A stretch of DNA of 49,614 nt from a virus. Location of the stretch: the UHGV virus genome UHGV-0299211. One strand, 5' to 3'. The notes under the pieces were generated by a model. It was not told the origin of the DNA, ran no database searches, and saw nothing but the letters and a program-made list of their open reading frames with translations. Made by a program: the position numbers and the translations under genes. This document shows positions 3,774 through 30,968 of this stretch, piece by piece; position 1 is the stretch's first letter; every line of letters begins with the position of its first letter.

Positions 3774-4466
3774 ATGGGAATGGATGGAAATGGATTGAGT
3801 GTAGCTGATGCATTAGCACTCGGAAAAGAAAACAATGGAATGTTCGGAGATGGCAATGGAAGTTGGATTTTCTTCTTATTCTTCCTACTCGCATGGGGAG
3901 GTAACTTTGGAAACTGGGGTGGAAATGGTATGAATAGTACAGCAAGCGCATATACAGATAGTGCAATTCAGAGAGGTTTTGACAACCAAGCAGTCATGAA
4001 TAAGCTGAATGGTTTGGAGAATGGAATTTGTGATGGATTCTATGCAGTGAATACTTCGCTTCTGAATGGTTTTAATGGAACACAGCAAGCAATCAATAAT
4101 GTAGCAGTAGCTGGAATGCAGAACACAAATGCACTTGCTTCACAGCTTGCGGATTGTTGTTGCACAACGCAGAGAAGTATTGATTCTGTAAGATATGAGA
4201 ATGCAAAAAATACTTGTGATATTGTGAACGCCATTAAAGCAGATGGTGATGCAACAAGAGCATTAATGACACAGAATGAGATTCAGAGTTTACGTGACCA
4301 GTTACAGACAGCAAACTTCCAGCTGAGTCAACAGGCACAGAACGCAACGCTGATTTCAACATTAAGACCAACACCAATTCCAGCATATCAGACATGTAGT
4401 CCATATGAAAGCGCACAGATGTTTTCACATTATGGAACAGCTTGCAACAATGGATGTGGGTGCTAA
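3774..4466 (+). CDS. Gly/Asn-rich membrane-anchored protein with a Cys-rich C-terminus
   Basis: Perfect RBS GGAGGT 8 nt before the ATG at 3774. TM segment WIFFLFFLLAWGG. GNFGNWGGNG repeats. C-terminal CCC...C...CNNGCGC. Confidence 0.5.
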   Translation: MGMDGNGLSVADALALGKENNGMFGDGNGSWIFFLFFLLAWGGNFGNWGGNGMNSTASAYTDSAIQRGFDNQAVMNKLNGLENGICDGFYAVNTSLLNGFNGTQQAINNVAVAGMQNTNALASQLADCCCTTQRSIDSVRYENAKNTCDIVNAIKADGDATRALMTQNEIQSLRDQLQTANFQLSQQAQNATLISTLRPTPIPAYQTCSPYESAQMFSHYGTACNNGCGC

Positions 4467-4519
4467 AGCGTTTATTTGATGATTTAAGAGAGTTTCCGCT
4501 TATGCGTGATATATTTGTA

Positions 4520-4550
4520 GGGGCGGCATAAAAACCGCCCTATTCGTTTA
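4520..4550 (+). terminator. Intrinsic terminator
   Basis: GGGGCGG-cataaaaa-CCGCCCT followed by a T-rich tract. Confidence 0.45.
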
Positions 4551-4579
4551 ATTAAAAGTATTAGAAAGGGTGATATAAA

Positions 4580-4954
4580 ATGGCATGTAGTTTATATAAT
4601 AATAATGGATATGGATGCGGTGGTTGCATACACTTTGTTAAAACAAACAGCGTAGTAGTTCAAGATGGTGTTTTGATTTTGAATATACCACAGGCAAGTT
4701 ATAGTAATAAAGAAAGAGTATGTATTTGTATAGCACAGGCAATTCCAACAGTAACAAGTGCAGAAACGGTAGCTATAACAATCGGAACAGGAACAACACA
4801 ATATGTACTTAGAACAAAGTGCGGAAATAATGTTCATGCAGACCAGTTAAGAAGTAGAAAAGTGTACCACACAAATGTTGCGACAGATGTTGGTACTTTC
4901 ATGGTTAGTAGCTGTGAGTTATGCGGAACAAGTTATAATTTTCCAGTAATATAA
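4580..4954 (+). CDS. Cys-rich hypothetical protein
   Basis: RBS AAAGGGTGA. 124 aa with GYGCGGC, CICIAQ and CELCG motifs. Confidence 0.5.
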   Translation: MACSLYNNNGYGCGGCIHFVKTNSVVVQDGVLILNIPQASYSNKERVCICIAQAIPTVTSAETVAITIGTGTTQYVLRTKCGNNVHADQLRSRKVYHTNVATDVGTFMVSSCELCGTSYNFPVI

Positions 4955-4967
4955 GGAGGGTAAAACA

Positions 4968-5360
4968 ATGTATGAAGTAAATGGTGTGAAATATGACGAA
5001 AATGTAAATACAAACAAAACAAATACAGAACAGGGATGGAATACACAGGAACAGCAACCATATATGGGAACACAAAGAAACAAACGCATGCAAGAAAACA
5101 TTGCAGAAGAAGTGTATGTAAAACTTGATGAACACATGCAGAAAGCATTAAGTTTCCATGAACAGCTTGCAGACTATTTCTGTTTCCTTGGTTTACAAGG
5201 TTTTAAGAGAAAGTTAGAATGTCAGTATATGGATGAATGTGCAAACAAAAGAAAGCTACACCACAAGTACATAAATCTTCACCAAAAATTGATTCCGTTA
5301 AGACAAGTGCAGTTCCCACAGATGATTCCAAGAGATTGGAGTAAATACACAAGGTTATAG
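4968..5360 (+). CDS. Hypothetical protein
   Basis: RBS AAGGAGGG. 130 aa. No recognizable motif. Confidence 0.5.
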   Translation: MYEVNGVKYDENVNTNKTNTEQGWNTQEQQPYMGTQRNKRMQENIAEEVYVKLDEHMQKALSFHEQLADYFCFLGLQGFKRKLECQYMDECANKRKLHHKYINLHQKLIPLRQVQFPQMIPRDWSKYTRL

Positions 5361-5405
5361 TTATGCAAGATATTGCTTATTCAATTAAAAAATATAATTA
5401 AGGGG

Positions 5406-5434
5406 TTGACAAAATCAGCCCTTTGATATATAAT
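5406..5434 (+). promoter_or_regulatory. Consensus sigma-A promoter (TTGACA-17-TATAAT) inside a GGGG...CCC hairpin element
   Basis: Exact -35 and -10 hexamers with a 17-nt spacer. The same 30-nt element recurs at 9506. Confidence 0.7.
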
Positions 5435-5483
5435 TAAATTAAGTTAAGAGAAAACAAATAAAACAGAAAAGGAGAAAACAAAA

Positions 5484-5636
5484 ATGAAGAAAGAATTTAT
5501 TAAAAATAATAATTTAACAGGAATGGTTATAGAGCTTGTTGATGGTCTTGGAATGAGCAGTGCAGATGCTATTGAATATGTTTATGATATGAAAACAATG
5601 AGCAATGAAGAATTTGCTAAAAAATATTTAAAATAA
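5484..5636 (+). CDS. Small ORF (50 aa)
   Basis: RBS AAAGGAGAAAACAAAAATG. MKKEFIKNNNLTGMVIELVDGLGMSSADAIEYVYDMKTMSNEEFAKKYLK. Confidence 0.4.
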   Translation: MKKEFIKNNNLTGMVIELVDGLGMSSADAIEYVYDMKTMSNEEFAKKYLK

Positions 5637-9573: not shown

Positions 9574-10767
9574 ATGGGAAATTTTTTCGATTTACACAGG
9601 CACACAGAATATTCATTGTTTGATGGATTTGGAAAGTCTATAAATTTAGCAAAGCACGCAAAGGAGCTAGGCTACAGAGCGTTAGGGATAAGTGACCACG
9701 GAACGATTAGTGGATTAATAAAACATTATCAAGCGTGTAATGAAGTTGGGATAAAACCAGTAATGGGATGCGAGATATATTTTCAACCAAAATTTAATAA
9801 AGAAAATCCGCAGAGAAAAAGTTATCATCTGAATTTGTTTGTAAAGAATTTGAAAGGATATAAAAATCTATGTCACATTATGACAGAAGCAAACACAAAA
9901 CAATTTTATTATAAACCTATAGTTGATTTTAAGTTACTTGAAAAATATTCAGATGGACTTATATGTACAACAGCTTGTATAGCAAGCGCAACGTCACAAG
10001 CTATTTTAAATGGTCATAGAAGCACAGCAGAGCGTTTATTAGATAAGTTTAAGGAAATATTTAAAGATGATTTGTACGTTGAAATACAGCCATATAAGAT
10101 AGACGCACAGGGGACACAACAAAGAACAGATTATGAACTTATGGGAATGGCAAAAAGAAAGAAAATAAAATGTATTCTAACAAGTGATTCACATTTTGGA
10201 AGTAAAGAAGATTTTGATACATATTGTAAAATGCATGAAATCGGAAAAACAACATTGGATGTAAAAAGAACATACAGTGAAAGGTACATGCCTACAGAGT
10301 ATGAGATAACAGAACGGTTTGCAAACATCTATAAAAAGAAGTTTAAAAAGCCAATGGAACTTGCAGAAAGATTTGCAGATAATATGAAAGAAATATATAA
10401 CAAAGTAGAAGAAAACATACTAGATGGGTTAGAATTAGAACTTCCTAAAATATCAGATGATGGAGCAAAACAACTTGAAACATTAACAAAACAGGGATTG
10501 AAAAACAGAAACAAATGGAATAAGGAATACTGGAAAAGATGTAAAGAAGAATTGGAAGTAATTAACTACCATGGTTTTGCAGACTATTTCCTTATTGTTA
10601 GAGATTATATAACATGGGCGAAAGAAAATGGAATTGAAACAGGAAAAGGAAGAGGTTCGGTTTGTAATTGCCTTGTAGCTTATGCAGTAGGAATTACAGA
10701 AGTAGACAGCATAAAATATAACCTTGATTTTAGTAGATTTATGAGAAAGGAAAAGAAGTCATTGCCT
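9574..10767 (+). CDS. dnaE: DNA polymerase III alpha (DnaE-type), exon 1 (PHP domain to ...KKSLP)
   Basis: PHP motif FDLHRHTEYSLFDG...ISDHG. Exon 1 ends in NLDFSRFMRKEKKSLP, which aligns with the E. coli GLLFERFLNPERVSMP segment just before the PDFDVDF catalytic motif. That catalytic motif is found downstream of the intron. Confidence 0.7.
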
Positions 10768-11591
10768 AAACTTATTTGGGCATCATTCGTGAACATTGCT
10801 TAATGGTGTGTATTATTATAATATGCTAACGGTATCAGAAAAATAAGACTCCTTATTGAAATGTTACAACAAGATAATAGGGCATAAGACCATAGACGAA
10901 TAATCTGACTAAGAAACCCTAAACCAGTGATGGTGAGATAGAGGGAATACCGTGCCAAGTCTATATAGAAAGGAAGTGAATTAGATGTTTAAAAGTATGG
11001 AAGAGTTTGACCACCATTCAATAGATGAATATGGAAATGTTTTAAACGAGAAAACAGGAAATATATTAAAACCTTATGTTGGAAGTGGAGGTTATTTGTA
11101 TGTAAAGCCATGTGAGAACAATATAACAAAACATTTGTCAATACATAGAGCAGTAGCAAAATATTTTTGCAAAGGATACAAACCAGAGCTAGTTGTTGAC
11201 CACATAGATGGAAATGTAAAGAACAACTATTATGAAAATCTTAGATGGTGTAAGCAAGCAGACAATTTGAAGTATGGATATGAGAGAAGAAAAGACACGC
11301 CATTCAGAAATTATAGACCATGTAAATTGTATGTTGGAAATAAATTGATAGATGAATTTCTAAGTATAACGGAAGCTGTGGAATATGCAGAAAAACACTA
11401 CGATGTTAAAAGAACAATGTTACATAAACATCTAGTTTATGGAAATGTTCGTATAGAAAGGTGTAACGACTAGTTTGTGAAGAGAGTAACAAGTGTAGGA
11501 ATGGAGATAAGCACCATTCCGAAGTGCGAATGCCACAATAGTGGAAGATATAGTCTAGCCTTGATAGTTTGGAAACGAACGACTAAGGTAG
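10768..11591 (+). mobile_element. Group I intron interrupting dnaE and carrying an HNH homing endonuclease
   Basis: P1: exon ...TGCCT pairs with intron GGGCA, with a U.G pair at the splice site. P7 GACTA (10907-10911) pairs with TAGTC (11551-11555). An AAGATATAGTC S-element is present. The intron ends in G. Splicing restores ...SLP/DIDLDF. Confidence 0.7.
10985..11473 (+). CDS. HNH homing endonuclease (intron-encoded)
   Basis: VDHIDGNVKNNYYENLRW matches the HNH_3 motif. It has its own RBS AGGAAGTGA. It sits in the loop between P7 and P7'. Confidence 0.75.
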   Translation: MFKSMEEFDHHSIDEYGNVLNEKTGNILKPYVGSGGYLYVKPCENNITKHLSIHRAVAKYFCKGYKPELVVDHIDGNVKNNYYENLRWCKQADNLKYGYERRKDTPFRNYRPCKLYVGNKLIDEFLSITEAVEYAEKHYDVKRTMLHKHLVYGNVRIERCND

Positions 11592-13118
11592 GATATTGAC
11601 TTAGATTTCGAACGAGATAGGAGACAGGAAGTAATTGATTATGTTATAAACAAATATCCAAACAAAGCAATACAAATTTGTTCTTATGGAATGTATGGAG
11701 TTGATAATCTTGTGAATGATTTGGCAAGTGTCTGTAACTTAAAAACAACAAAAGATGTTGATTGGTTTGAAGCAGATGAAAATAAAAAAGTAATTGCAGA
11801 AATCAAGTCATATATTAAGGGATTCATAGTAGATGATGAGCTGAATATGAGTAATTTATTGAATGGATACAGAACAGAAGAGTTTAATGAAAAGTATGAC
11901 AACATTATAAAACATTTTTCAAAACTTTATGGTAAAATAAAGTACCTTGGAAAACATTCGGCTGGGGTTGCTGTGGTTGGAACAGATATAAGTGATTATA
12001 CTTGCATTATCATGAGAGATAGAAAGACAGGAGCATTAAGCAGTTGTTTTGACAAAGATGATTTAGAGCATATTAATTGTGTAAAGTTTGATATGCTTGG
12101 ACTTAAAACAATGTCAGAAATGCGTGAGCTTAGAGAGAAAACAGGGCATGAGATAACAGAAGAAGATGAAGAAAGCAAAGAGGTTATAGAGGGATTCAGA
12201 GAGGGAAGAACAGATGGGATTTTTCAGATGGAAAAGTCAGCACCTAAAAAGATTCTTGATATGATTCAGTGTGATTGTATAAATGATATTATAGCAGTGA
12301 ATGCATTAAACAGACCAGCACCATTACAGTTGCACATGCATGAAACATATGCACATAACAAACTTTCTGATAATGTGGATAAGAATACACCATATTATAA
12401 ATATACTCAAGAAACATATGGAACAATGTTATATCAAGAGCAAACAGTTGAAGTAGCGCAGAAAGTTGGACACTTAACACCACAGCAGAGTTTTGATATG
12501 TTAAAGATTATGAAGAAAGCAGAGAACTTAACAAAACCAGAGTACATTCCTATTATTGAACAAATGAAAAAAGATTTCTTTAGAGGATGTAAAAAAGAGG
12601 GACTGACAAAAGAACAAACAAATAGCATATGGGCGAGTATGCTAATCTATGGATTCAACAAGGGGCACTCAACAGGGTATGCGTTAATAAGTATTGACCA
12701 GATGTATTACAAAGTACATTATCCAACACAGTTTTGGTATGTTAAAATGAAGTATGCAGATAATGATGCAGATATCTTTAAATATTCACAGTTTGCAGTA
12801 AAAGATGGTACTGTGGTTATGTTACCGCATGTAAATTATTCAGCTAAAACTTCATTACGTAAAATGGACGGAGAGGACGTTATACAGCAAGGGTTGAGTA
12901 TTATTAAGGGTATTGGAGAAAAAGCCGCAGAAACCATAGAAGAAGAGCGTAGAAAGGGTGTGTTTAAATCATATGATGATTTCTATGACAGATGTAAAGG
13001 AAGAAGTGTTACAAAAGGGGTAATTAAAACATTGAAAGAACAGGGCGCACTTGAATTTAACAAAAACAAATATATGAGCAGAGTAGTAAAATATAATAGC
13101 ACATTAATGGCGAGGTAG
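11592..13118 (+). CDS. dnaE: DNA polymerase III alpha (DnaE-type), exon 2
   Basis: Frame is open from 11592. DIDLDFERDRRQEVIDYV matches the PDFDVDF...RDEVI catalytic region. LGKHSAGVAV matches GxHAAGVVI. Confidence 0.7.
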   Translation, partial: DIDLDFERDRRQEVIDYVINKYPNKAIQICSYGMYGVDNLVNDLASVCNLKTTKDVDWFEADENKKVIAEIKSYIKGFIVDDELNMSNLLNGYRTEEFNEKYDNIIKHFSKLYGKIKYLGKHSAGVAVVGTDISDYTCIIMRDRKTGALSSCFDKDDLEHINCVKFDMLGLKTMSEMRELREKTGHEITEEDEESKEVIEGFREGRTDGIFQMEKSAPKKILDMIQCDCINDIIAVNALNRPAPLQLHMHETYAHNKLSDNVDKNTPYYKYTQETYGTMLYQEQTVEVAQKVGHLTPQQSFDMLKIMKKAENLTKPEYIPIIEQMKKDFFRGCKKEGLTKEQTNSIWASMLIYGFNKGHSTGYALISIDQMYYKVHYPTQFWYVKMKYADNDADIFKYSQFAVKDGTVVMLPHVNYSAKTSLRKMDGEDVIQQGLSIIKGIGEKAAETIEEERRKGVFKSYDDFYDRCKGRSVTKGVIKTLKEQGALEFNKNKYMSRVVKYNSTLMAR

Positions 13119-13125
13119 AAAAGTG

Positions 13126-13479
13126 ATGAAAGAAATTATTGAAACAATGGAGAATGAAGAACGAAAGAAACATGATAATGTAAACCATCCAAAACATTAT
13201 GATGGGAATTGTAGCATTGAATGTATTGATAACATGAGATTGATTTTTGGGAATCAGAGAGTAACTGATTTTTGTATTGTAAATGCATATAAGTATTTGA
13301 GCAGATATAAATATAAAAATGGTAATGAAGATTTAAAAAAAGCAAAATGGTATCTAGACGAAGCAGAGGTATTGAAGTTAACAATGGAAACAGATTTTGA
13401 TTATGGAACATTTGACAAGCTCGTAGATTTATGTAACAGATATATGGAGGAATACACACATGGCAAAGGGAATGAATAA
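13126..13479 (+). CDS. DUF3310-like protein (NHPxHY motif)
   Basis: VNHPKHYDGN...Y motif typical of the phage DUF3310 family. Confidence 0.4.
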   Translation: MKEIIETMENEERKKHDNVNHPKHYDGNCSIECIDNMRLIFGNQRVTDFCIVNAYKYLSRYKYKNGNEDLKKAKWYLDEAEVLKLTMETDFDYGTFDKLVDLCNRYMEEYTHGKGNE

Positions 13480-15340
13480 AGATGGAATATTAAAACTTAT
13501 GTCAGAGATTGACAAAAAAGAAAAAGGAAGTGTTTACAGTTTAGGAAGTAAATCGGATGCACTTAAGATTCCAAGATGGAGTACAGGACTTGTTGACCTT
13601 GATAACATTATTGGTGGCGGAGTTCCTAAAGGAAGAGTCATAGAGATTTTTGGTGCAGAGAGTGCTGGAAAAACAACATTAGGTTATCAGTTATGCGCCC
13701 AGCATGATATGTGTTTGGATATTCCGATTGAGGGATGCGTAGATAAAGATACAGAGTTTTTTAATGGTAGCAGATGGAAAAAGATATGCAATTACAAACA
13801 AGGAGAAAGTGTTTTACAGTATAATGCAGATGGAACAGCAACGTTGGAAAAGCCATTAAAATATCATAAAAAAGATGCTTGTGCAATGTGGAGAGTACAA
13901 ACAAAGAATAGACTTGATATGGTTGTTTCTGAACATCATAATGTTGTTTATAGAACTGTTGGAAGTAATAATTTGCAGATTAGGTCATTCCATGAAATAC
14001 GAAAACGTATAGAAATGAATAAGGATGGTTTTGCTGGGAATATTCCGAAAACATTTATGTACAATGGAAGAGGTATAAATTTATCTGATAGTGAAATTCG
14101 CCTTATGGTTGCCGTGTTTGCAGACGGAAGTTTTAATAAAGGTAACAATTCAAAACAATGTTATATGGGACTCATGAAAAAGAGAAAGCGCAAAAGAATA
14201 AAAATGCTATTGTCGAATTGTAGCGTAGAATATAGAATGTCACAGAATAAAAAGTTTTTTATTTTTGATGCACCGTTTCGTGAAAAGAACTATCCTAGTA
14301 GTTGGTACAATATGACGAATAGACAGTTGATGATAGTTTTGGATGAAATGAAACACTGGGATGGTTGTCAGTTTGAAGTTGGTCATATGCCAAGTTTTAC
14401 AACAACAAATAAAAGTGATGCAGATTTTATTCAATTTGCATACACTTCATGTGGATATTCAGCATATATACAGAAAGTTGATAATTCATGGAAAGATATT
14501 CGCATTGTAGACCATAATGTAAAAAATATGAAGTTGGCGTATACGGTATGTGCAGGGATGAAAAGCAATATTGTAAGTTTGAAAAAAGCGTGGGTTGAAC
14601 CATTTGCCACAGAAGACGGTAAAATGTATTGCTTCACAATGAAGTCTGGAATGTGGGTTATGAGAAGAAACAATAGAATAATCATAACAGGAAATACTTT
14701 TGATGGAGAGAGAGCAAAGCTATTCGGAAACAGACCAAAACAAATGATTGTATATAGAGCAAGATATGGAGAAAAAGCATTTAATAGAGCAATAAGGTTT
14801 GCGGAAGAGGGAATACCACTTGTTATGATTGATAGTGTTCCATCAATGCAGCCAAAGGATGATATCGATAAAATCAGAAAAGCGGTAAATACAGATAGTG
14901 AACAGGAAATGCGTATCGGTGGTGTAGCTAGGTTGATGGATAAGTATTTACCAACACTTGAGGATGTAATAGAACAGACAGGAACAACAGTTATATTTAT
15001 TAATCAGATTCGTGATAAAATGAATGCGTTGCCTTTTGGAGATAACATACAAACTCCGGGCGGTCATAAATTAAAACATAGTGCGTCACTTAGAATACAA
15101 GTAGCAAGAAAAGGTTATATTGAAATTCCTAACCATAATCCATTCAATACAGAAGCGAAAGAGCGTATAGGAATGATTATGAAAGTTAAGGTCGTAAAAA
15201 GTAAAGTGTGTAATCCAATGCAGAGTTGTGAAATCCCATTATTCTATGAACGTGGTTTTGTTGATTTTGCAGACCTTGATTCTGTTAGAAAAGAAATCAT
15301 GGATGAACATAAGAAAAAATACAAGGAAATGTTAGAGTGA
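13460..15340 (+). CDS. recA: RecA recombinase interrupted by an intein
   Basis: P-loop GAESAGKTT. IPRWSTGLVDLDNIIGGGVPKGRVIEIFG. C-terminal extein IDSVPSMQPK...VIFINQIRDKMNALPFGDNIQTPGGHKLKHSASLRIQVARKG aligns with the E. coli RecA core. It is 626 aa against about 306 aa of extein. Confidence 0.8.
   Translation: MAKGMNKDGILKLMSEIDKKEKGSVYSLGSKSDALKIPRWSTGLVDLDNIIGGGVPKGRVIEIFGAESAGKTTLGYQLCAQHDMCLDIPIEGCVDKDTEFFNGSRWKKICNYKQGESVLQYNADGTATLEKPLKYHKKDACAMWRVQTKNRLDMVVSEHHNVVYRTVGSNNLQIRSFHEIRKRIEMNKDGFAGNIPKTFMYNGRGINLSDSEIRLMVAVFADGSFNKGNNSKQCYMGLMKKRKRKRIKMLLSNCSVEYRMSQNKKFFIFDAPFREKNYPSSWYNMTNRQLMIVLDEMKHWDGCQFEVGHMPSFTTTNKSDADFIQFAYTSCGYSAYIQKVDNSWKDIRIVDHNVKNMKLAYTVCAGMKSNIVSLKKAWVEPFATEDGKMYCFTMKSGMWVMRRNNRIIITGNTFDGERAKLFGNRPKQMIVYRARYGEKAFNRAIRFAEEGIPLVMIDSVPSMQPKDDIDKIRKAVNTDSEQEMRIGGVARLMDKYLPTLEDVIEQTGTTVIFINQIRDKMNALPFGDNIQTPGGHKLKHSASLRIQVARKGYIEIPNHNPFNTEAKERIGMIMKVKVVKSKVCNPMQSCEIPLFYERGFVDFADLDSVRKEIMDEHKKKYKEMLE
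13736..14695 (+). mobile_element. Intein (320 aa) with a LAGLIDADG homing-endonuclease domain, inserted in recA
   Basis: It starts at CVDKDTEFF (block A). LAGLIDADG-like motifs LMVAVFADGSF and LMIVLDEMKHWDGC. It ends ...IIITGN, followed by Thr+1 and the extein TFDGERAKLFG. Confidence 0.6.
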
Positions 15341-30735: not shown

Positions 30736-30807
30736 TGCCTAGTAGCCAAGTGGTAAGGCACAGGACTTTGACTCCTGCATTCGCTGGTTCGAATCCAACC
30801 TAGGTAG
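30736..30807 (+). tRNA. tRNA-Gln (anticodon TTG)
   Basis: Hand-folded cloverleaf. Acceptor stem TGCCTAG/CTAGGTA with a U1-A72 pair and G73, typical of tRNA-Gln. Anticodon stem CAGGA/TCCTG, loop CTTTGAC. GGTTCGAATCC T-arm with one C.A mismatch. Confidence 0.7.
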
Positions 30808-30895: not shown

Positions 30896-30968
30896 GGAGC
30901 ATTAGTTCAATGGCTAGAGCAACCGCCTCATAAGCGGTAAGTTGTAGGTTCGAGTCCCACATGCTCCA
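30896..30968 (+). tRNA. tRNA-Met (anticodon CAT), elongator type
   Basis: Acceptor stem GGAGCAT/ATGCTCC, A73. Anticodon stem ACCGC/GCGGT, loop CTCATAA. T-arm GTAGG-TTCGAGT-CCCAC with one A.C mismatch. Confidence 0.75.

What the first reader, a model, noticed from the sequence alone, without database searches (positions are those of the whole stretch)
9574..13118. DnaE-type replicative polymerase split by a group I intron carrying an HNH endonuclease
The PHP and N-terminal palm region stop at 10803, but splicing at 10767/11592 restores ...KKSLP-DIDLDFERDRRQEVI. That is the universally conserved PDxDxDF catalytic motif of PolIII alpha. The intervening 824 nt have the group I hallmarks listed in the feature entry (P1 with a U.G pair at the splice site, a P7 pairing, an S-element and a terminal G). 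The HNH ORF sits between P7 and P7'.
Basis: partly seen in the sequence, partly recalled or inferred. Interest (0 to 1): 0.55.

Follow-up and report, generated by a model that had tools for sequence, protein, structure and literature searches.

The report
Self-splicing intron splits phage DNA polymerase
A phage replicative DNA polymerase gene is interrupted, exactly at its catalytic motif, by a mobile self-splicing group I intron that carries its own homing nuclease: real and cleanly supported, but an ordinary example of a well-known kind of element.

Summary
Removing 10768-11591 (824 nt) joins 9574-10767 to 11592-13118 in frame and gives a 906-aa DnaE-type polymerase. The Pfam DNA_pol3_alpha profile runs 2-102 | 103-260 exactly across the joint. 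Dozens of near-identical phages carry the same 906-aa gene uninterrupted.

The insert is a group I intron of the phage IA2 type, like those of SPO1 and T4 td. P1 has a U·G pair at the splice site. P3, P3.1, P3.2, P5, P5a, P6, P7, P7.2 and P8 are supported by compensatory changes across about 37 relatives. J8/7-P7' reads AAGAUAUAGUCU, and the last base is G.

The HNH ORF, an I-HmuI homologue, lies in the P6a loop upstream of P7, not between P7 and P7'. The "P7" at 10905 is the 3' strand of P5.

Rfam finds nothing here, but it also misses the proven T4 td intron, so that failure says nothing.

Related ribozymes occupy the same LP|DxDxD site in Bacillus phage G, in Enterococcus phage EF1 (where it is annotated as "Phage intron") and in many metagenomic phages. 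Splicing itself is inferred, not shown. Verdict: a new member of a known kind, of low to moderate interest.

The parts
9574..10767 (+). Exon 1 of the DnaE-type polymerase gene (398 codons: PHP domain and the N-terminal part of the palm). It ends ...AAG UCA UUG CCU (KSLP).
   Evidence: Pfam PHP at E = 1.4e-44. DNA_pol3_alpha profile positions 2-102 end at the last residue. Aligns without gaps to intron-less alleles.
10768..11591 (+). Group I intron, 824 nt, IA2/SPO1-like.
   Evidence: Its removal restores the reading frame. Intron-less, ORF-less and ORF-deleted alleles exist in relatives. Helix coordinates were verified. Covariation is shown.
11592..13118 (+). Exon 2 (508 codons plus stop). It starts GAU AUU GAC UUA GAU UUC (DIDLDF) and holds the rest of the palm, the fingers and the HhH domain.
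   Evidence: DNA_pol3_alpha profile positions 103-260 start at residue 1; DNA_pol3_finger and HHH_6 also match. An in-frame UAG (11589-11591) closes the frame directly upstream. The first in-frame AUG is at 11691, downstream of the catalytic aspartates.
10763..10782 (+). P1. The exon bases UGCCU (10763-67) pair with the internal guide GGGCA (10778-82). U10767·G10778 is the wobble pair at the 5' splice site.
   Evidence: 5 of 5 pairs form. Compensatory changes are seen in relatives at the same site: UUACCU/GGGUA in CS266P3 and CS266P4 and GUGCUU/GAGCA in L058. Every intron-containing allele has CCU; intron-less alleles have CCU, CCG or CCA.
10784..10791 (+). 5' strand of P3 (CAUUCGUG). It pairs with 11525-11532 (UGCGAAUG), forming the P3/P7 pseudoknot.
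   Evidence: 8 of 8 pairs form. In 24 of 37 relatives (19 distinct sequences) the exact Watson-Crick complement of the 6-nt strand lies in the relative's own 3' part, each time after a GAAG-YG-type linker (GAAGUG/GAAGCG in most). Among non-cognate pairings this happens in 1.45%.
10794..10826 (+). Two hairpins between P3 and J3/4, named here by position. P3.1 is 10794-97/10802-05. P3.2 is 10808-14/10820-26.
   Evidence: Canonical pairs fill 94% and 97% of cells, with 3-6 pair types at the variable positions. P3.2 is also predicted by RNAalifold. The same UGAAC-hairpin-GGUGU-hairpin-GCUAA layout occurs in the SPO1 intron.
10829..10953 (+). P4-P5 domain. P4 is 10829-34/10948-53. P5 is 10835-39/10904-08. 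The P5a arm is 10851-57/10876-82. The P5b hairpin is 10917-20/10942-45 with an inner stem 10923-26/10931-34.
Evidence: In the RNAalifold consensus of 16 diverse members, 24 of 37 predicted pairs keep pairing through changes on both sides. P5 position 4 shows four pair types.
10954..10965 (+). 5' strands of P6 (GCC) and P6a (UCUAUA). Their partners are 11460-62 (GGU) and 11452-57 (UAUAGA). The ORF lies in the P6a loop.
   Evidence: All pairs form. P6 positions 2 and 3 covary: C-G, U-A and G-C. The ORF-less allele L067 keeps a short P6a hairpin in place of the ORF.
10985..11473 (+). HNH homing endonuclease gene (162 aa), preceded by a Shine-Dalgarno-like GGAAGUGA. Its last 8 codons (stop codon included) overlap the 3' strands of P6a and P6, J6/7 and the 5' strand of P7.
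   Evidence: Pfam HNH_3 at E = 4.6e-9. I-HmuI structure 1U3E at E = 1.9e-14, with DH..N..N aligned. phrog_59 at E = 4.7e-25. 61.7% identical to the CS266P1 ORF; the equivalent ORFs of CS266P3 and CS266P4 are annotated I-HmuI.
11466..11472 (+). 5' strand of P7: A11466, bulged C11467, then GACUA 11468-72. It pairs with UAGUC-U at 11551-11556.
   Evidence: All pairs form. The flanking pair covaries strictly across the family: AAC...U in 19 members, AGA...C in 14 and AUC...A in 4. That is an A-U, G-C or U-A pair next to a bulge. The same AACGACUA...UAGUCU occurs in T4 td and SPO1.
11474..11520 (+). P7.1 (11474-78/11489-93) and P7.2 (11498-504/11514-20, loop AGAUAAGCA), followed by the linker GAAG.
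   Evidence: All pairs form. The P7.2 stem varies while staying paired, for example GCAAUUG/CAAUUGC, CAUUUGG/CCAAGUG and GAUCUGG/CCAGAUC. The order P7, P7.1, GUA, P7.2, GAAxx, P3', P8 is the same as in td and SPO1.
11533..11556 (+). P8 (CCAC AAUA GUGG, 11533-44), J8/7 (AAGAUA, 11545-50) and the 3' strand of P7 (UAGUCU, 11551-56).
   Evidence: All pairs form. For P8, cognate strands form 3.0 of 4 pairs against 1.5 for non-cognate strands. The J8/7-P7' string matches the Rfam group I consensus AAGAUAUAGUCu printed.
11559..11591 (+). P9 (11559-62/11585-88 and 11567-71/11576-80, with a GAAA tetraloop) and the terminal guanosine G11591.
   Evidence: All pairs form. CS266P3 and CS266P4 keep a GAAA-capped hairpin (UCGG GAAA CCGA), and every relative at this site ends in G before GAU.

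Best explanation
Positions 10768-11591 are a mobile group I intron of the phage IA2 type. It is inserted between the Pro and Asp codons of the catalytic P-D-x-D-x-D-F motif of a phage DnaE-type (PolIII alpha) polymerase gene.

Mechanism, inferred from the established chemistry of group I introns:
1. The transcript folds so that the exon bases UGCCU pair with the guide GGGCA (P1).
2. A free guanosine bound in P7 attacks after U10767.
3. The freed 3'-OH of U10767 then attacks after the terminal G11591. This ligates the exons into an mRNA for a 906-aa polymerase.

Unspliced RNA can only yield a 409-aa fragment that ends 11 codons into the intron. Exon 2 has no start codon that would keep the catalytic aspartates.

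The intron's P6a loop carries a 162-aa I-HmuI-type HNH endonuclease with its own ribosome-binding site. By analogy with I-HmuI, it most likely nicks intron-less alleles near the insertion site during mixed infection. Repair from the intron-bearing genome then copies in the intron together with a short tract of flanking exon.

Shown here: the gene split and the exact in-frame junction; the intron-less, ORF-less and ORF-deleted alleles; the helices and their covariation; the homology of the ORF.
Inferred: splicing in vivo; the nicking activity and target of the endonuclease; homing.
For: Junction
- The Pfam profile is contiguous, 102 | 103.
- The 906-aa product matches PolIII alpha structures over its whole length.
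- Uninterrupted 906-aa homologues at 96-99% identity exist. Their DNA aligns without gaps to the spliced sequence.

Ribozyme
- All 19 helix segments form fully in the window.
- P3: an exact cognate complement in 24 of 37 relatives against 1.45% of non-cognate pairings.
- P3.1, P3.2, P6 and the bulge-flanking pair of P7 covary. So do P5, P7.2 and P8.
- RNAalifold finds 24 of 37 pairs compensatory in the P3.2-P4-P5 domain.
- The 3' core reads AACGACUA - P7.1 - GUA - P7.2 - GAAGUG - P3' - P8 - AAGAUA - UAGUCU. This matches T4 td (my recalled td sequence proved 100% identical to T4) and SPO1 gene 31, annotated 'contains intron'.

Constraint specific to splicing
- Every intron-bearing allele has CCU at the splice site. 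Intron-less alleles use CCU, CCG or CCA.

Mobility
- The ORF-less allele L067 and the allele L015, which has a 168-nt deletion removing the HNH motif, both keep an intact ribozyme.
- Intron-less alleles differ from the window at 5-7 positions within ±11 nt of the site, against about 1 expected.
- A related ribozyme sits at the same LP|DxDxD site in Bacillus phage G with a GIY-YIG-type ORF (phrog_314), in Enterococcus phage EF1 with an HNH ORF annotated 'Phage intron', and in many IMG/VR contigs.

ORF
- HNH_3, 1U3E and phrog_59 matches.
Against: - There is no RNA evidence, so splicing is not demonstrated.
- Rfam RF00028 does not match the window at gathering score or at E <= 10. It does not match the ORF-less allele either. 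The proven td intron also fails, so this weighs little.
- The single-sequence MFE of the ORF-less allele is only marginally more stable than shuffles (z = -1.69). It does not recover P4 or P5.
- P10 is weak in the window: only 2 pairs are possible between UU (10776-77) and GA (11592-93).
- P4 is invariant in the family, so it has no covariation support.
- The helix names P3.1, P3.2 and P5b are mine, assigned by position.
Confidence: 0.93

Rival explanations
1. The polymerase is a naturally split, two-subunit enzyme. The two ORFs (9574-10803 and 11691-13118) are translated separately and assemble without RNA splicing. The HNH gene is a free-standing endonuclease lying between them.
For: Gene callers and GenBank annotators treat the homologous halves in CS266P3 and CS266P4 as separate 'hypothetical proteins'. 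The Rfam search fails.
Against: - The break falls inside the catalytic PDxDxDF motif.
- The downstream frame is closed by a UAG at 11589-91, and its first AUG is 33 codons past the aspartates. An independently translated C-terminal fragment would therefore lack DIDLDF.
- The non-coding flanks of the HNH gene carry a conserved structure with compensatory changes.
- That structure persists when the ORF is lost (L067) or damaged (L015).
- Close relatives have one continuous 906-aa gene.
Confidence: 0.02
2. This is a 'fractured gene'. The two halves are joined after translation by a split intein, with a homing endonuclease gene between them, as described for some metagenomic dnaE genes.
For: That arrangement is known for replication genes, dnaE included (PMC2677866, listed). 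The neighbouring RecA gene of this window carries an intein-like insert.
Against: - Only 11 codons follow the junction in exon 1 (KLIWASFVNIA), too few for an N-intein of about 100 aa.
- The exon 2 frame is closed by a stop codon directly before the junction, so no C-intein can be encoded.
- Pfam finds only polymerase domains in both halves.
Confidence: 0.01
3. The insert is a group I intron by descent but has decayed and no longer splices, so this genome carries a dead polymerase gene.
For: No splicing data. P10 is weak in the window. The thermodynamic signal of the ORF-less allele is marginal.
Against: - Every core helix is fully paired. U·G, the terminal G, J8/7 and the bulged P7 are all intact.
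- At least nine further IMG/VR contigs of 44-53 kb carry the intron-borne HNH ORF; the eight closest (94-100% identical in the ORF) differ in the ribozyme only by a handful of substitutions.
- The exons are 98-99% identical in protein to intron-less alleles but only about 94% in DNA, which indicates purifying selection.
Confidence: 0.04

Closest known systems
Bacillus phage SPO1 gene 31 (DNA polymerase) group I intron, which encodes I-HmuI
   Same: - The 5' layout is the same: P3 - UGAAC - hairpin - GGUGU - hairpin - GCUAA - P4.
- The P6-P7 junction is the same: GCCAAG...AAGGUGY AACGACUA.
- The 3' core is the same: GUA - P7.2 - GAAGYG - P3' - P8 - AAGAUA UAGUCU AGC.
- The ORF is a homologue of I-HmuI (1U3E, E = 1.9e-14; tblastn hit inside SPO1 gene 31).
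- Both interrupt a phage replicative polymerase at a conserved site.
   Different: - The host gene is a family C (DnaE/PolIII alpha) polymerase, not family A.
- The ORF is in the P6a loop here and in the P8 loop in SPO1.
- The P4-P5 domain has a different sequence and a three-way junction: CGGUAUCAG...CUGACUAAGAG...AUACCG here against AGGGG...CCUGU in SPO1.
T4 td group I intron (IA2), which encodes I-TevI
   Same: - The ORF is placed in the P6 extension and ends just before or within the 5' strand of P7.
- The order is P7, P7.1, P7.2, P3', P8, J8/7, P7', with AACGACUA and GAGAUAUAGUCU.
- Like the window's intron, it is missed by the Rfam scan.
   Different: - The td ORF is a GIY-YIG enzyme; the host gene is thymidylate synthase.
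- td has a P2 hairpin and no hairpins between P3 and J3/4.
- There is no detectable sequence similarity outside the core junctions.
Interrupted PolIII alpha genes of Bacillus phage G (gp329/gp330/gp331), Enterococcus phage EF1 and Clostridium phages CS266P1-4
   Same: - Same insertion point (LP|DxDxD), same guide sequence and a related ribozyme: 68-75% identity over the 5' domain, with the P7.2 loop and 3' core conserved.
- EF1 and CS266P3/P4 carry a homologous HNH ORF in the same place.
   Different: - Phage G carries a GIY-YIG-type ORF (phrog_314) instead of HNH.
- These are database records. I found no paper that tests their splicing.
- CS266P3 and CS266P4 annotate the exons as hypothetical proteins and do not annotate the intron.
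[quoted passage not shown]
   Same: The P4-P5 module is the same (GCUAACGGUAUCAG ... CUGACUAAGAG ... AUACCGUG), as are UGAAC-hairpin-GGUGU and the 3' core. It is found in chromosomal nrdE of B. cereus, B. wiedmannii and others. Group I introns in B. cereus-group nrdE are described in the literature (PMC2248736).
   Different: The host gene and host (a bacterial chromosome) differ. These introns have an extra P2-like hairpin after P1. I did not establish which published nrdE insertion site these loci correspond to.

Membership tests
Group I intron | P1 helix between the end of the 5' exon and an internal guide sequence, with a U·G wobble pair at the splice site | tested here: met
   UGCCU (10763-67) pairs with GGGCA (10778-82), including U10767·G10778. 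Compensatory variants occur at the same site in relatives. U is fixed in intron-bearing alleles only.
Group I intron | Terminal guanosine at the 3' splice site | tested here: met
   G11591. All relatives at this site end in G before GAU.
Group I intron | Conserved core: P3/P7 pseudoknot, P4-P6 domain and P8, supported by covariation | tested here: met
   P3. P6 and the bulge-flanking pair of P7. P5, P7.2 and P8. P4-P5-P5a-P5b by RNAalifold. P4 itself is invariant, which says nothing either way.
Group I intron | G-binding P7 with a bulged nucleotide and the R/S-type consensus (..ACGACUA.. / AAGAUAUAGUC) | tested here: met
   A11466, bulged C11467, GACUA, paired with UAGUCU; J8/7 is AAGAUA. The strings are identical in T4 td and SPO1 and in the Rfam consensus line.
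Group I intron | Match to the curated covariance model Rfam RF00028 (Intron_gpI) | tested here: not met
   No hit at gathering score or at E <= 10 in the window, in relatives or in ORF-less alleles. Controls: the same scan misses the proven T4 td intron but does find an unrelated intron in L123 at 66 bits. The test is therefore insensitive for this clade. The model is a detection tool, not a defining property of the family.
Group I intron | Guanosine-dependent self-splicing that yields ligated exons | not testable with these tools
   Needs RT-PCR, RNA-seq or an in vitro splicing assay.
Subgroup IA2 (phage type) | Extra pairings P7.1 and P7.2 between P7 and the 3' strand of P3 | tested here: met
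   P7.1 is 11474-78/11489-93 and P7.2 is 11498-504/11514-20. P7.2 stems vary with compensation. The order is the same as in td and SPO1. Assignment to IA2 rather than IA3 rests on this resemblance; no subgroup-specific model was available.
I-HmuI-type HNH homing endonuclease | HNH (His-Me finger) catalytic motif and homology to I-HmuI | tested here: met
   Pfam HNH_3 at E = 4.6e-9. 1U3E at E = 1.9e-14, with vvDHiDGN..NN..NLRW aligned to VVDHKDGNKDNN..NLRW. phrog_59.
I-HmuI-type HNH homing endonuclease | Site-specific single-strand nicking near the intron insertion site | not testable with these tools
   Requires a cleavage assay on intron-less alleles such as the L004, L140 and L142 types.
DnaE-type DNA polymerase III alpha | PHP domain, palm with the PDxDxDF aspartates, fingers and HhH domain in the canonical order | tested here: met
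   Pfam PHP, DNA_pol3_alpha, DNA_pol3_finger and HHH_6. Full-length alignment to E. coli and T. aquaticus alpha subunits, with a weaker, N-terminal-only match to PolC. At 906 aa the protein ends near residue 887 of the E. coli enzyme, so the C-terminal OB-fold and tau-binding region is absent.
Split-intein 'fractured gene' | N- and C-intein halves fused to the two gene fragments | tested here: not met
   Only 11 extra codons follow exon 1, and a stop codon lies directly before exon 2. No intein domains are found in either half.

The most novel reading that the evidence does not exclude
The most novel reading that the evidence leaves open has three parts.

1. This intron belongs to a large ribozyme clade that is barely described. 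The clade shares the SPO1-like 5' layout, a three-way P4-P5 junction and the conserved strings GCUAACGGUAUCAG / CUGACUAAGAG / AUACCGUG.
2. The standard Rfam model cannot see this clade even when no ORF is present.
3. The clade has repeatedly colonised the catalytic PDxDxD codons of PolIII alpha in very distant phages, swapping endonuclease genes as it went (HNH, GIY-YIG).

In this gut-phage population all stages of the homing cycle coexist: empty site, full intron, damaged ORF and ORF-less intron. The cluster of mostly silent changes around the empty sites could be selected resistance to the nicking enzyme.
Probability: 0.35. Interest if true: 0.4.

Novelty: new member of a known kind. Interest (0 to 1): 0.25.

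Why it matters
Practical value
- The two polymerase halves should be annotated as one spliced 906-aa gene. In the related GenBank phages CS266P3 and CS266P4 they are listed as separate hypothetical proteins.
- Phylogenies and gene counts that use this marker gene are affected.
- The standard Rfam scan misses this intron clade. It also misses T4 td when the ORF is present. Negative scans of phage genomes therefore should not be read as absence of introns.

Biological value
- It is a tidy natural example of homing-site conservation at an enzyme's catalytic motif.
- The homing cycle is visible within one phage population.
- It does not change what is known about group I introns.

Tried and rejected
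1. Rfam cmscan of the window at gathering score and at E <= 10 on 10600-11800: no group I hit. The same held for seven related loci, twelve further loci including ORF-less introns and three ORF-less loci at E <= 10. I kept this only as a negative result, after the T4 td control also failed.

2. It took GACUA at 10908 as the 5' strand of P7 and ACGGUAU/AUACCGU as P3. I rejected it for three reasons. EF1 has UUCUA at that place. The long-range helix 10784-91/11525-32 covaries and sits where P3 sits in td and SPO1. And AACGACUA at the end of the ORF pairs with UAGUCU with a covarying flanking pair.

3. An unanchored search for the best complement of the P3 strand, with G·U pairs allowed, was not specific: 29% of non-cognate pairings also scored 6 of 6. 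I replaced it with the exact Watson-Crick test.

4. Automatic P8 detection by longest stem picked the wrong stems in about half of the sequences. I replaced it with anchoring on the P3' position.

5. My first regular expressions for the 5' parse and for the P5 strands were wrong and were corrected.

6. The single-sequence MFE of the ORF-less allele had z = -1.69 and did not recover P4 or P5. It does not help either way.

7. An idea noted early on, that the conserved domain upstream of the ORF might be a second ribozyme (a twin-ribozyme analogy), was dropped. That domain is the intron's own P4-P5.

8. Literature searches for a described group I intron in a phage dnaE gene found none. They turned up only general accounts of split polymerase genes in related phages. 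A search for a published definition of P3.1 in IA3 introns found nothing.

9. A search for an empty site with exactly the window's exon flanks found none among close relatives.

Full report
**The observation**

The ORF 9574-10803 (409 aa) carries a PHP domain and the first 102 positions of the Pfam DNA_pol3_alpha profile. The frame that opens at 11592 carries positions 103-260 of the same profile, then the finger and HhH domains. Joining 10767 to 11592 gives 2721 nt in frame and a 906-aa protein that reads ...KKSLP|DIDLDFERDRRQEVI.

That protein aligns over its whole length with solved PolIII alpha subunits: T. aquaticus 2HPI at E = 2e-105 and E. coli 2HNH at E = 4e-98. Its match to PolC is weaker and covers only the N-terminal part. 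It is therefore DnaE-type. It ends near residue 887 of the E. coli enzyme and lacks the C-terminal OB-fold and tau-binding region.

The junction is not a matter of judgement. A search with the spliced protein returned 81 clusters of exactly 906 aa at 96-99% identity. The DNA of four such uninterrupted alleles (L004, L005, L140/141, L142) aligns to the spliced window sequence without a single gap, at 94-95% identity.

**What the insert is**

Rfam gave nothing, at gathering score or at E <= 10, so I worked from relatives. Three groups of phages have the same split at the same place.

- Clostridium phages CS266P1-4 match the region at about 73% identity. In CS266P3 and CS266P4, whose annotation I read, the split has an I-HmuI-annotated ORF and the two halves are listed as hypothetical proteins.
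- Bacillus phage G has gp329 'DnaE-like', gp330 'homing endonuclease' and gp331.
- Enterococcus phage EF1 has an ORF annotated 'HNH homing endonuclease # Phage intron'.

At least 58 of them carry the full conserved module. From these I parsed about 50 introns and kept 37 non-redundant ones.

**The structure**

It failed. EF1 has UUCUA there, and the comparative data point elsewhere. In the model that fits, every helix is fully paired in the window:

| Element | Coordinates |
|---|---|
| P1 | 10763-67 / 10778-82, with U10767·G10778 |
| P3 | 10784-91 / 11525-32 |
| P3.1 (named by position) | 10794-97 / 10802-05 |
| P3.2 (named by position) | 10808-14 / 10820-26 |
| J3/4 | UA(A), 10827-28; A10829 opens P4 |
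| P4 | 10829-34 / 10948-53 |
| P5 | 10835-39 / 10904-08 |
| P5a arm | 10851-57 / 10876-82 |
| P5b hairpin | 10917-45 |
| P6 | 10954-56 / 11460-62 |
| P6a (ORF in its loop) | 10960-65 / 11452-57 |
| P7 | A11466, bulged C11467, 11468-72 / 11551-56 |
| P7.1 | 11474-78 / 11489-93 |
| P7.2 | 11498-504 / 11514-20 |
| P8 | 11533-36 / 11541-44 |
| J8/7 | AAGAUA, 11545-50 |
| P9 | 11559-88, with a GAAA loop |
| Terminal G | 11591 |

**Support from covariation**

- **P3.** The exact Watson-Crick complement of the 6-nt 5' strand is found in the same intron's 3' part in 24 of 37 cases (19 distinct sequences), each time after a GAAG-YG-type linker (GAAGUG or GAAGCG in most). Among non-cognate combinations it is found in 1.45%.
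- **P3.1 and P3.2.** They are 94% and 97% canonical, with up to six pair types per position.
- **P6.** Positions 2 and 3 switch among C-G, U-A and G-C.
- **P7.** The nucleotides that flank GACUA/UAGUC covary strictly: AAC...U, AGA...C and AUC...A. That is an A-U, G-C or U-A pair next to a bulged base, the usual form of a group I P7.
- **P5, P7.2 and P8.** They vary with compensation.
- **5' domain.** An RNAalifold run on 16 diverse 5' domains, given no structure in advance, predicted P3.2, P4, P5, P5a and P5b. In 24 of the 37 pairs, pairing is kept through changes on both sides.
- **P1.** It covaries between exon and guide: UUGCCU/GGGCA in the window, UUACCU/GGGUA in CS266P3 and CS266P4, GUGCUU/GAGCA in L058.

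One constraint makes sense only for RNA splicing. All intron-bearing alleles end exon 1 with CCU. Intron-less alleles use CCU, CCG or CCA for the same proline.

**Comparison with proven introns**

The record annotates I-TevI as 'encoded by group 1A intron in td'. The td and window cores share both order and junction sequences: AACGACUA - P7.1 - GUA - P7.2 - GAAAC or GAAGU - P3' - P8 - GAGAUA or AAGAUA - UAGUCU.

The SPO1 polymerase intron (gene 31, annotated 'contains intron') is closer still. It has:
- the same UGAAC - hairpin - GGUGU - hairpin - GCUAA run between P3 and P4;
- the same GCCAAG ... AAGGUGC AACGACUAU around P6;
- the same GAAGCG - P3' - P8 - AAGAUAUAGUCUAGC.

The two hairpins after P3 are therefore a feature of a known, self-splicing phage intron lineage and not an oddity. 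In SPO1 the endonuclease ORF lies in P8. Here it lies in the P6a loop and runs through the 3' strands of P6a and P6, J6/7 and the 5' strand of P7. The same arrangement is described for the B. thuringiensis nrdF group IA intron (PMC2248736) and is seen in td.

**The Rfam failure**

RF00028 also misses the natural ORF-less allele of this very intron (L067) and other ORF-less members. It misses the T4 td locus at E <= 10. It does find an unrelated intron in L123 at 66 bits. The scan works, but it is blind to this clade and to td with its ORF in place. Its failure cannot count as a refutation.

**The ORF**

The 162-aa protein matches Pfam HNH_3 and the I-HmuI structure 1U3E (E = 1.9e-14, with the DH...N...N motif aligned). 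It also matches phrog_59, the family reported for intron-encoded HNH enzymes in Bastillevirinae polymerase genes (PMC11878797). It has a Shine-Dalgarno-like GGAAGUGA upstream. Nicking activity and target are inferred by homology only.

**Mobility**

- Among the window's closest relatives there are empty sites and full introns.
- One allele has a 168-nt deletion that removes the HNH motif but leaves the ribozyme intact (L015).
- One allele has the ORF replaced by a short P6a hairpin (L067).
- Empty-site alleles differ from the window at 5-7 positions within ±11 nt of the insertion point, where about one difference is expected. This fits co-conversion, selection for P1 pairing or target-site resistance. 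I cannot separate these.
- Phage G has a related ribozyme at the same site with a GIY-YIG-type ORF (phrog_314), so ribozyme and nuclease have been exchanged.
- The same ribozyme module also interrupts B. cereus-group nrdE, a second PolIII alpha site, a family A polymerase, a GyrB/Toprim gene and nrdD in bacterial genome contigs.

**Rival explanations**

- Independent expression of two fragments is excluded in practice. The exon 2 frame is closed by UAG at 11589-91, and its first AUG lies 33 codons beyond the catalytic aspartates.
- A split-intein 'fractured gene' has no room: 11 extra codons on one side and a stop codon on the other.
- A decayed, non-splicing intron cannot be excluded without RNA data. 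It is unlikely given the intact core, the conservation of the ribozyme across at least nine further contigs of 44-53 kb, and the purifying selection on the exons.

**Novelty**

Group I introns with HNH genes in phage polymerase genes have been known since SPO1. Interrupted PolIII alpha genes already exist in GenBank, one of them labelled 'Phage intron'. I found no paper that describes or tests an intron in a phage dnaE gene.

I file this as a new member of a known kind, with low to moderate interest. Its practical value lies in correcting annotation and in showing a blind spot of the standard model.

Noticed in passing
window 13460-15340 (insert about 13736-14695): The RecA gene is 626 aa, whereas close relatives (L004, L005, L006) have 306 aa. 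Residues 1-92 and 413-626 align to the short form. The 320-aa insert starts with Cys (CVDKD...), ends ...ITGN followed by Thr, and contains a LAGLIDADG-like LMVAVFADGSF. It is probably an intein with a homing endonuclease, directly downstream of the intron-bearing polymerase gene.
   Followed up: partly
L006 8305-~9416; L003 (Dulem virus 36) 4464-5612: Some near-identical relatives that lack the window's intron carry a different intervening sequence in the same polymerase gene, at GFNKGH|STGY in the finger region. It holds a 266-aa LAGLIDADG-type ORF (phrog_4645/11023). The window lacks it.
   Followed up: partly
L067 (reverse strand, intron 343 nt) and L015 1501-1818: Natural decay stages of the same intron occur in IMG/VR contigs. 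L067 has no ORF, only a short P6a hairpin. L015 has a 168-nt internal deletion that removes the HNH motif. Both keep the ribozyme core.
   Followed up: yes
L144-L173 (bacterial genome contigs): The same ribozyme module (CUGACUAAGAR...AUACCGUG) occurs in 30 bacterial contigs, mostly Bacillus and Clostridia. It interrupts nrdE of the B. cereus group, a second PolIII alpha site (SYQFG|..NHS), a family A polymerase, a GyrB/Toprim gene, nrdD and another ribonucleotide reductase.
   Followed up: partly
L001, L002 (GenBank OP172778, OP172777): In Clostridium phages CS266P3 and CS266P4 the two polymerase exons are annotated as separate hypothetical proteins and the intron is not annotated. Only the ORF is named (I-HmuI). 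CS266P1 and CS266P2 match the same region, with 'hypothetical protein' and 'DNA endonuclease' features listed under the hits.
   Followed up: yes
L017 (Enterocloster phage CB473P3) 2440-3040: A related ribozyme in another gene has about 240 nt inserted in its P8 loop. A second I-HmuI-type ORF lies about 1.3 kb upstream in the same gene region, which suggests several introns in one gene.
   Followed up: no
L176 1072-1089; L177 5278-5295: Two distant, uninterrupted PolIII-like genes contain the exact 18-nt joined-exon sequence GTCATTGCCT|GATATTGA. They are possible natural empty target sites far outside the window's phage group.
   Followed up: no
window 30736-30807 and 30896-30968: Two tRNA genes (Rfam tRNA, 60 and 65 bits). 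All ORFs of 100 aa or more that look like genes lie on the + strand, and G+C is 32.8%. The window looks like most of a phage genome of about 50 kb.
   Followed up: no
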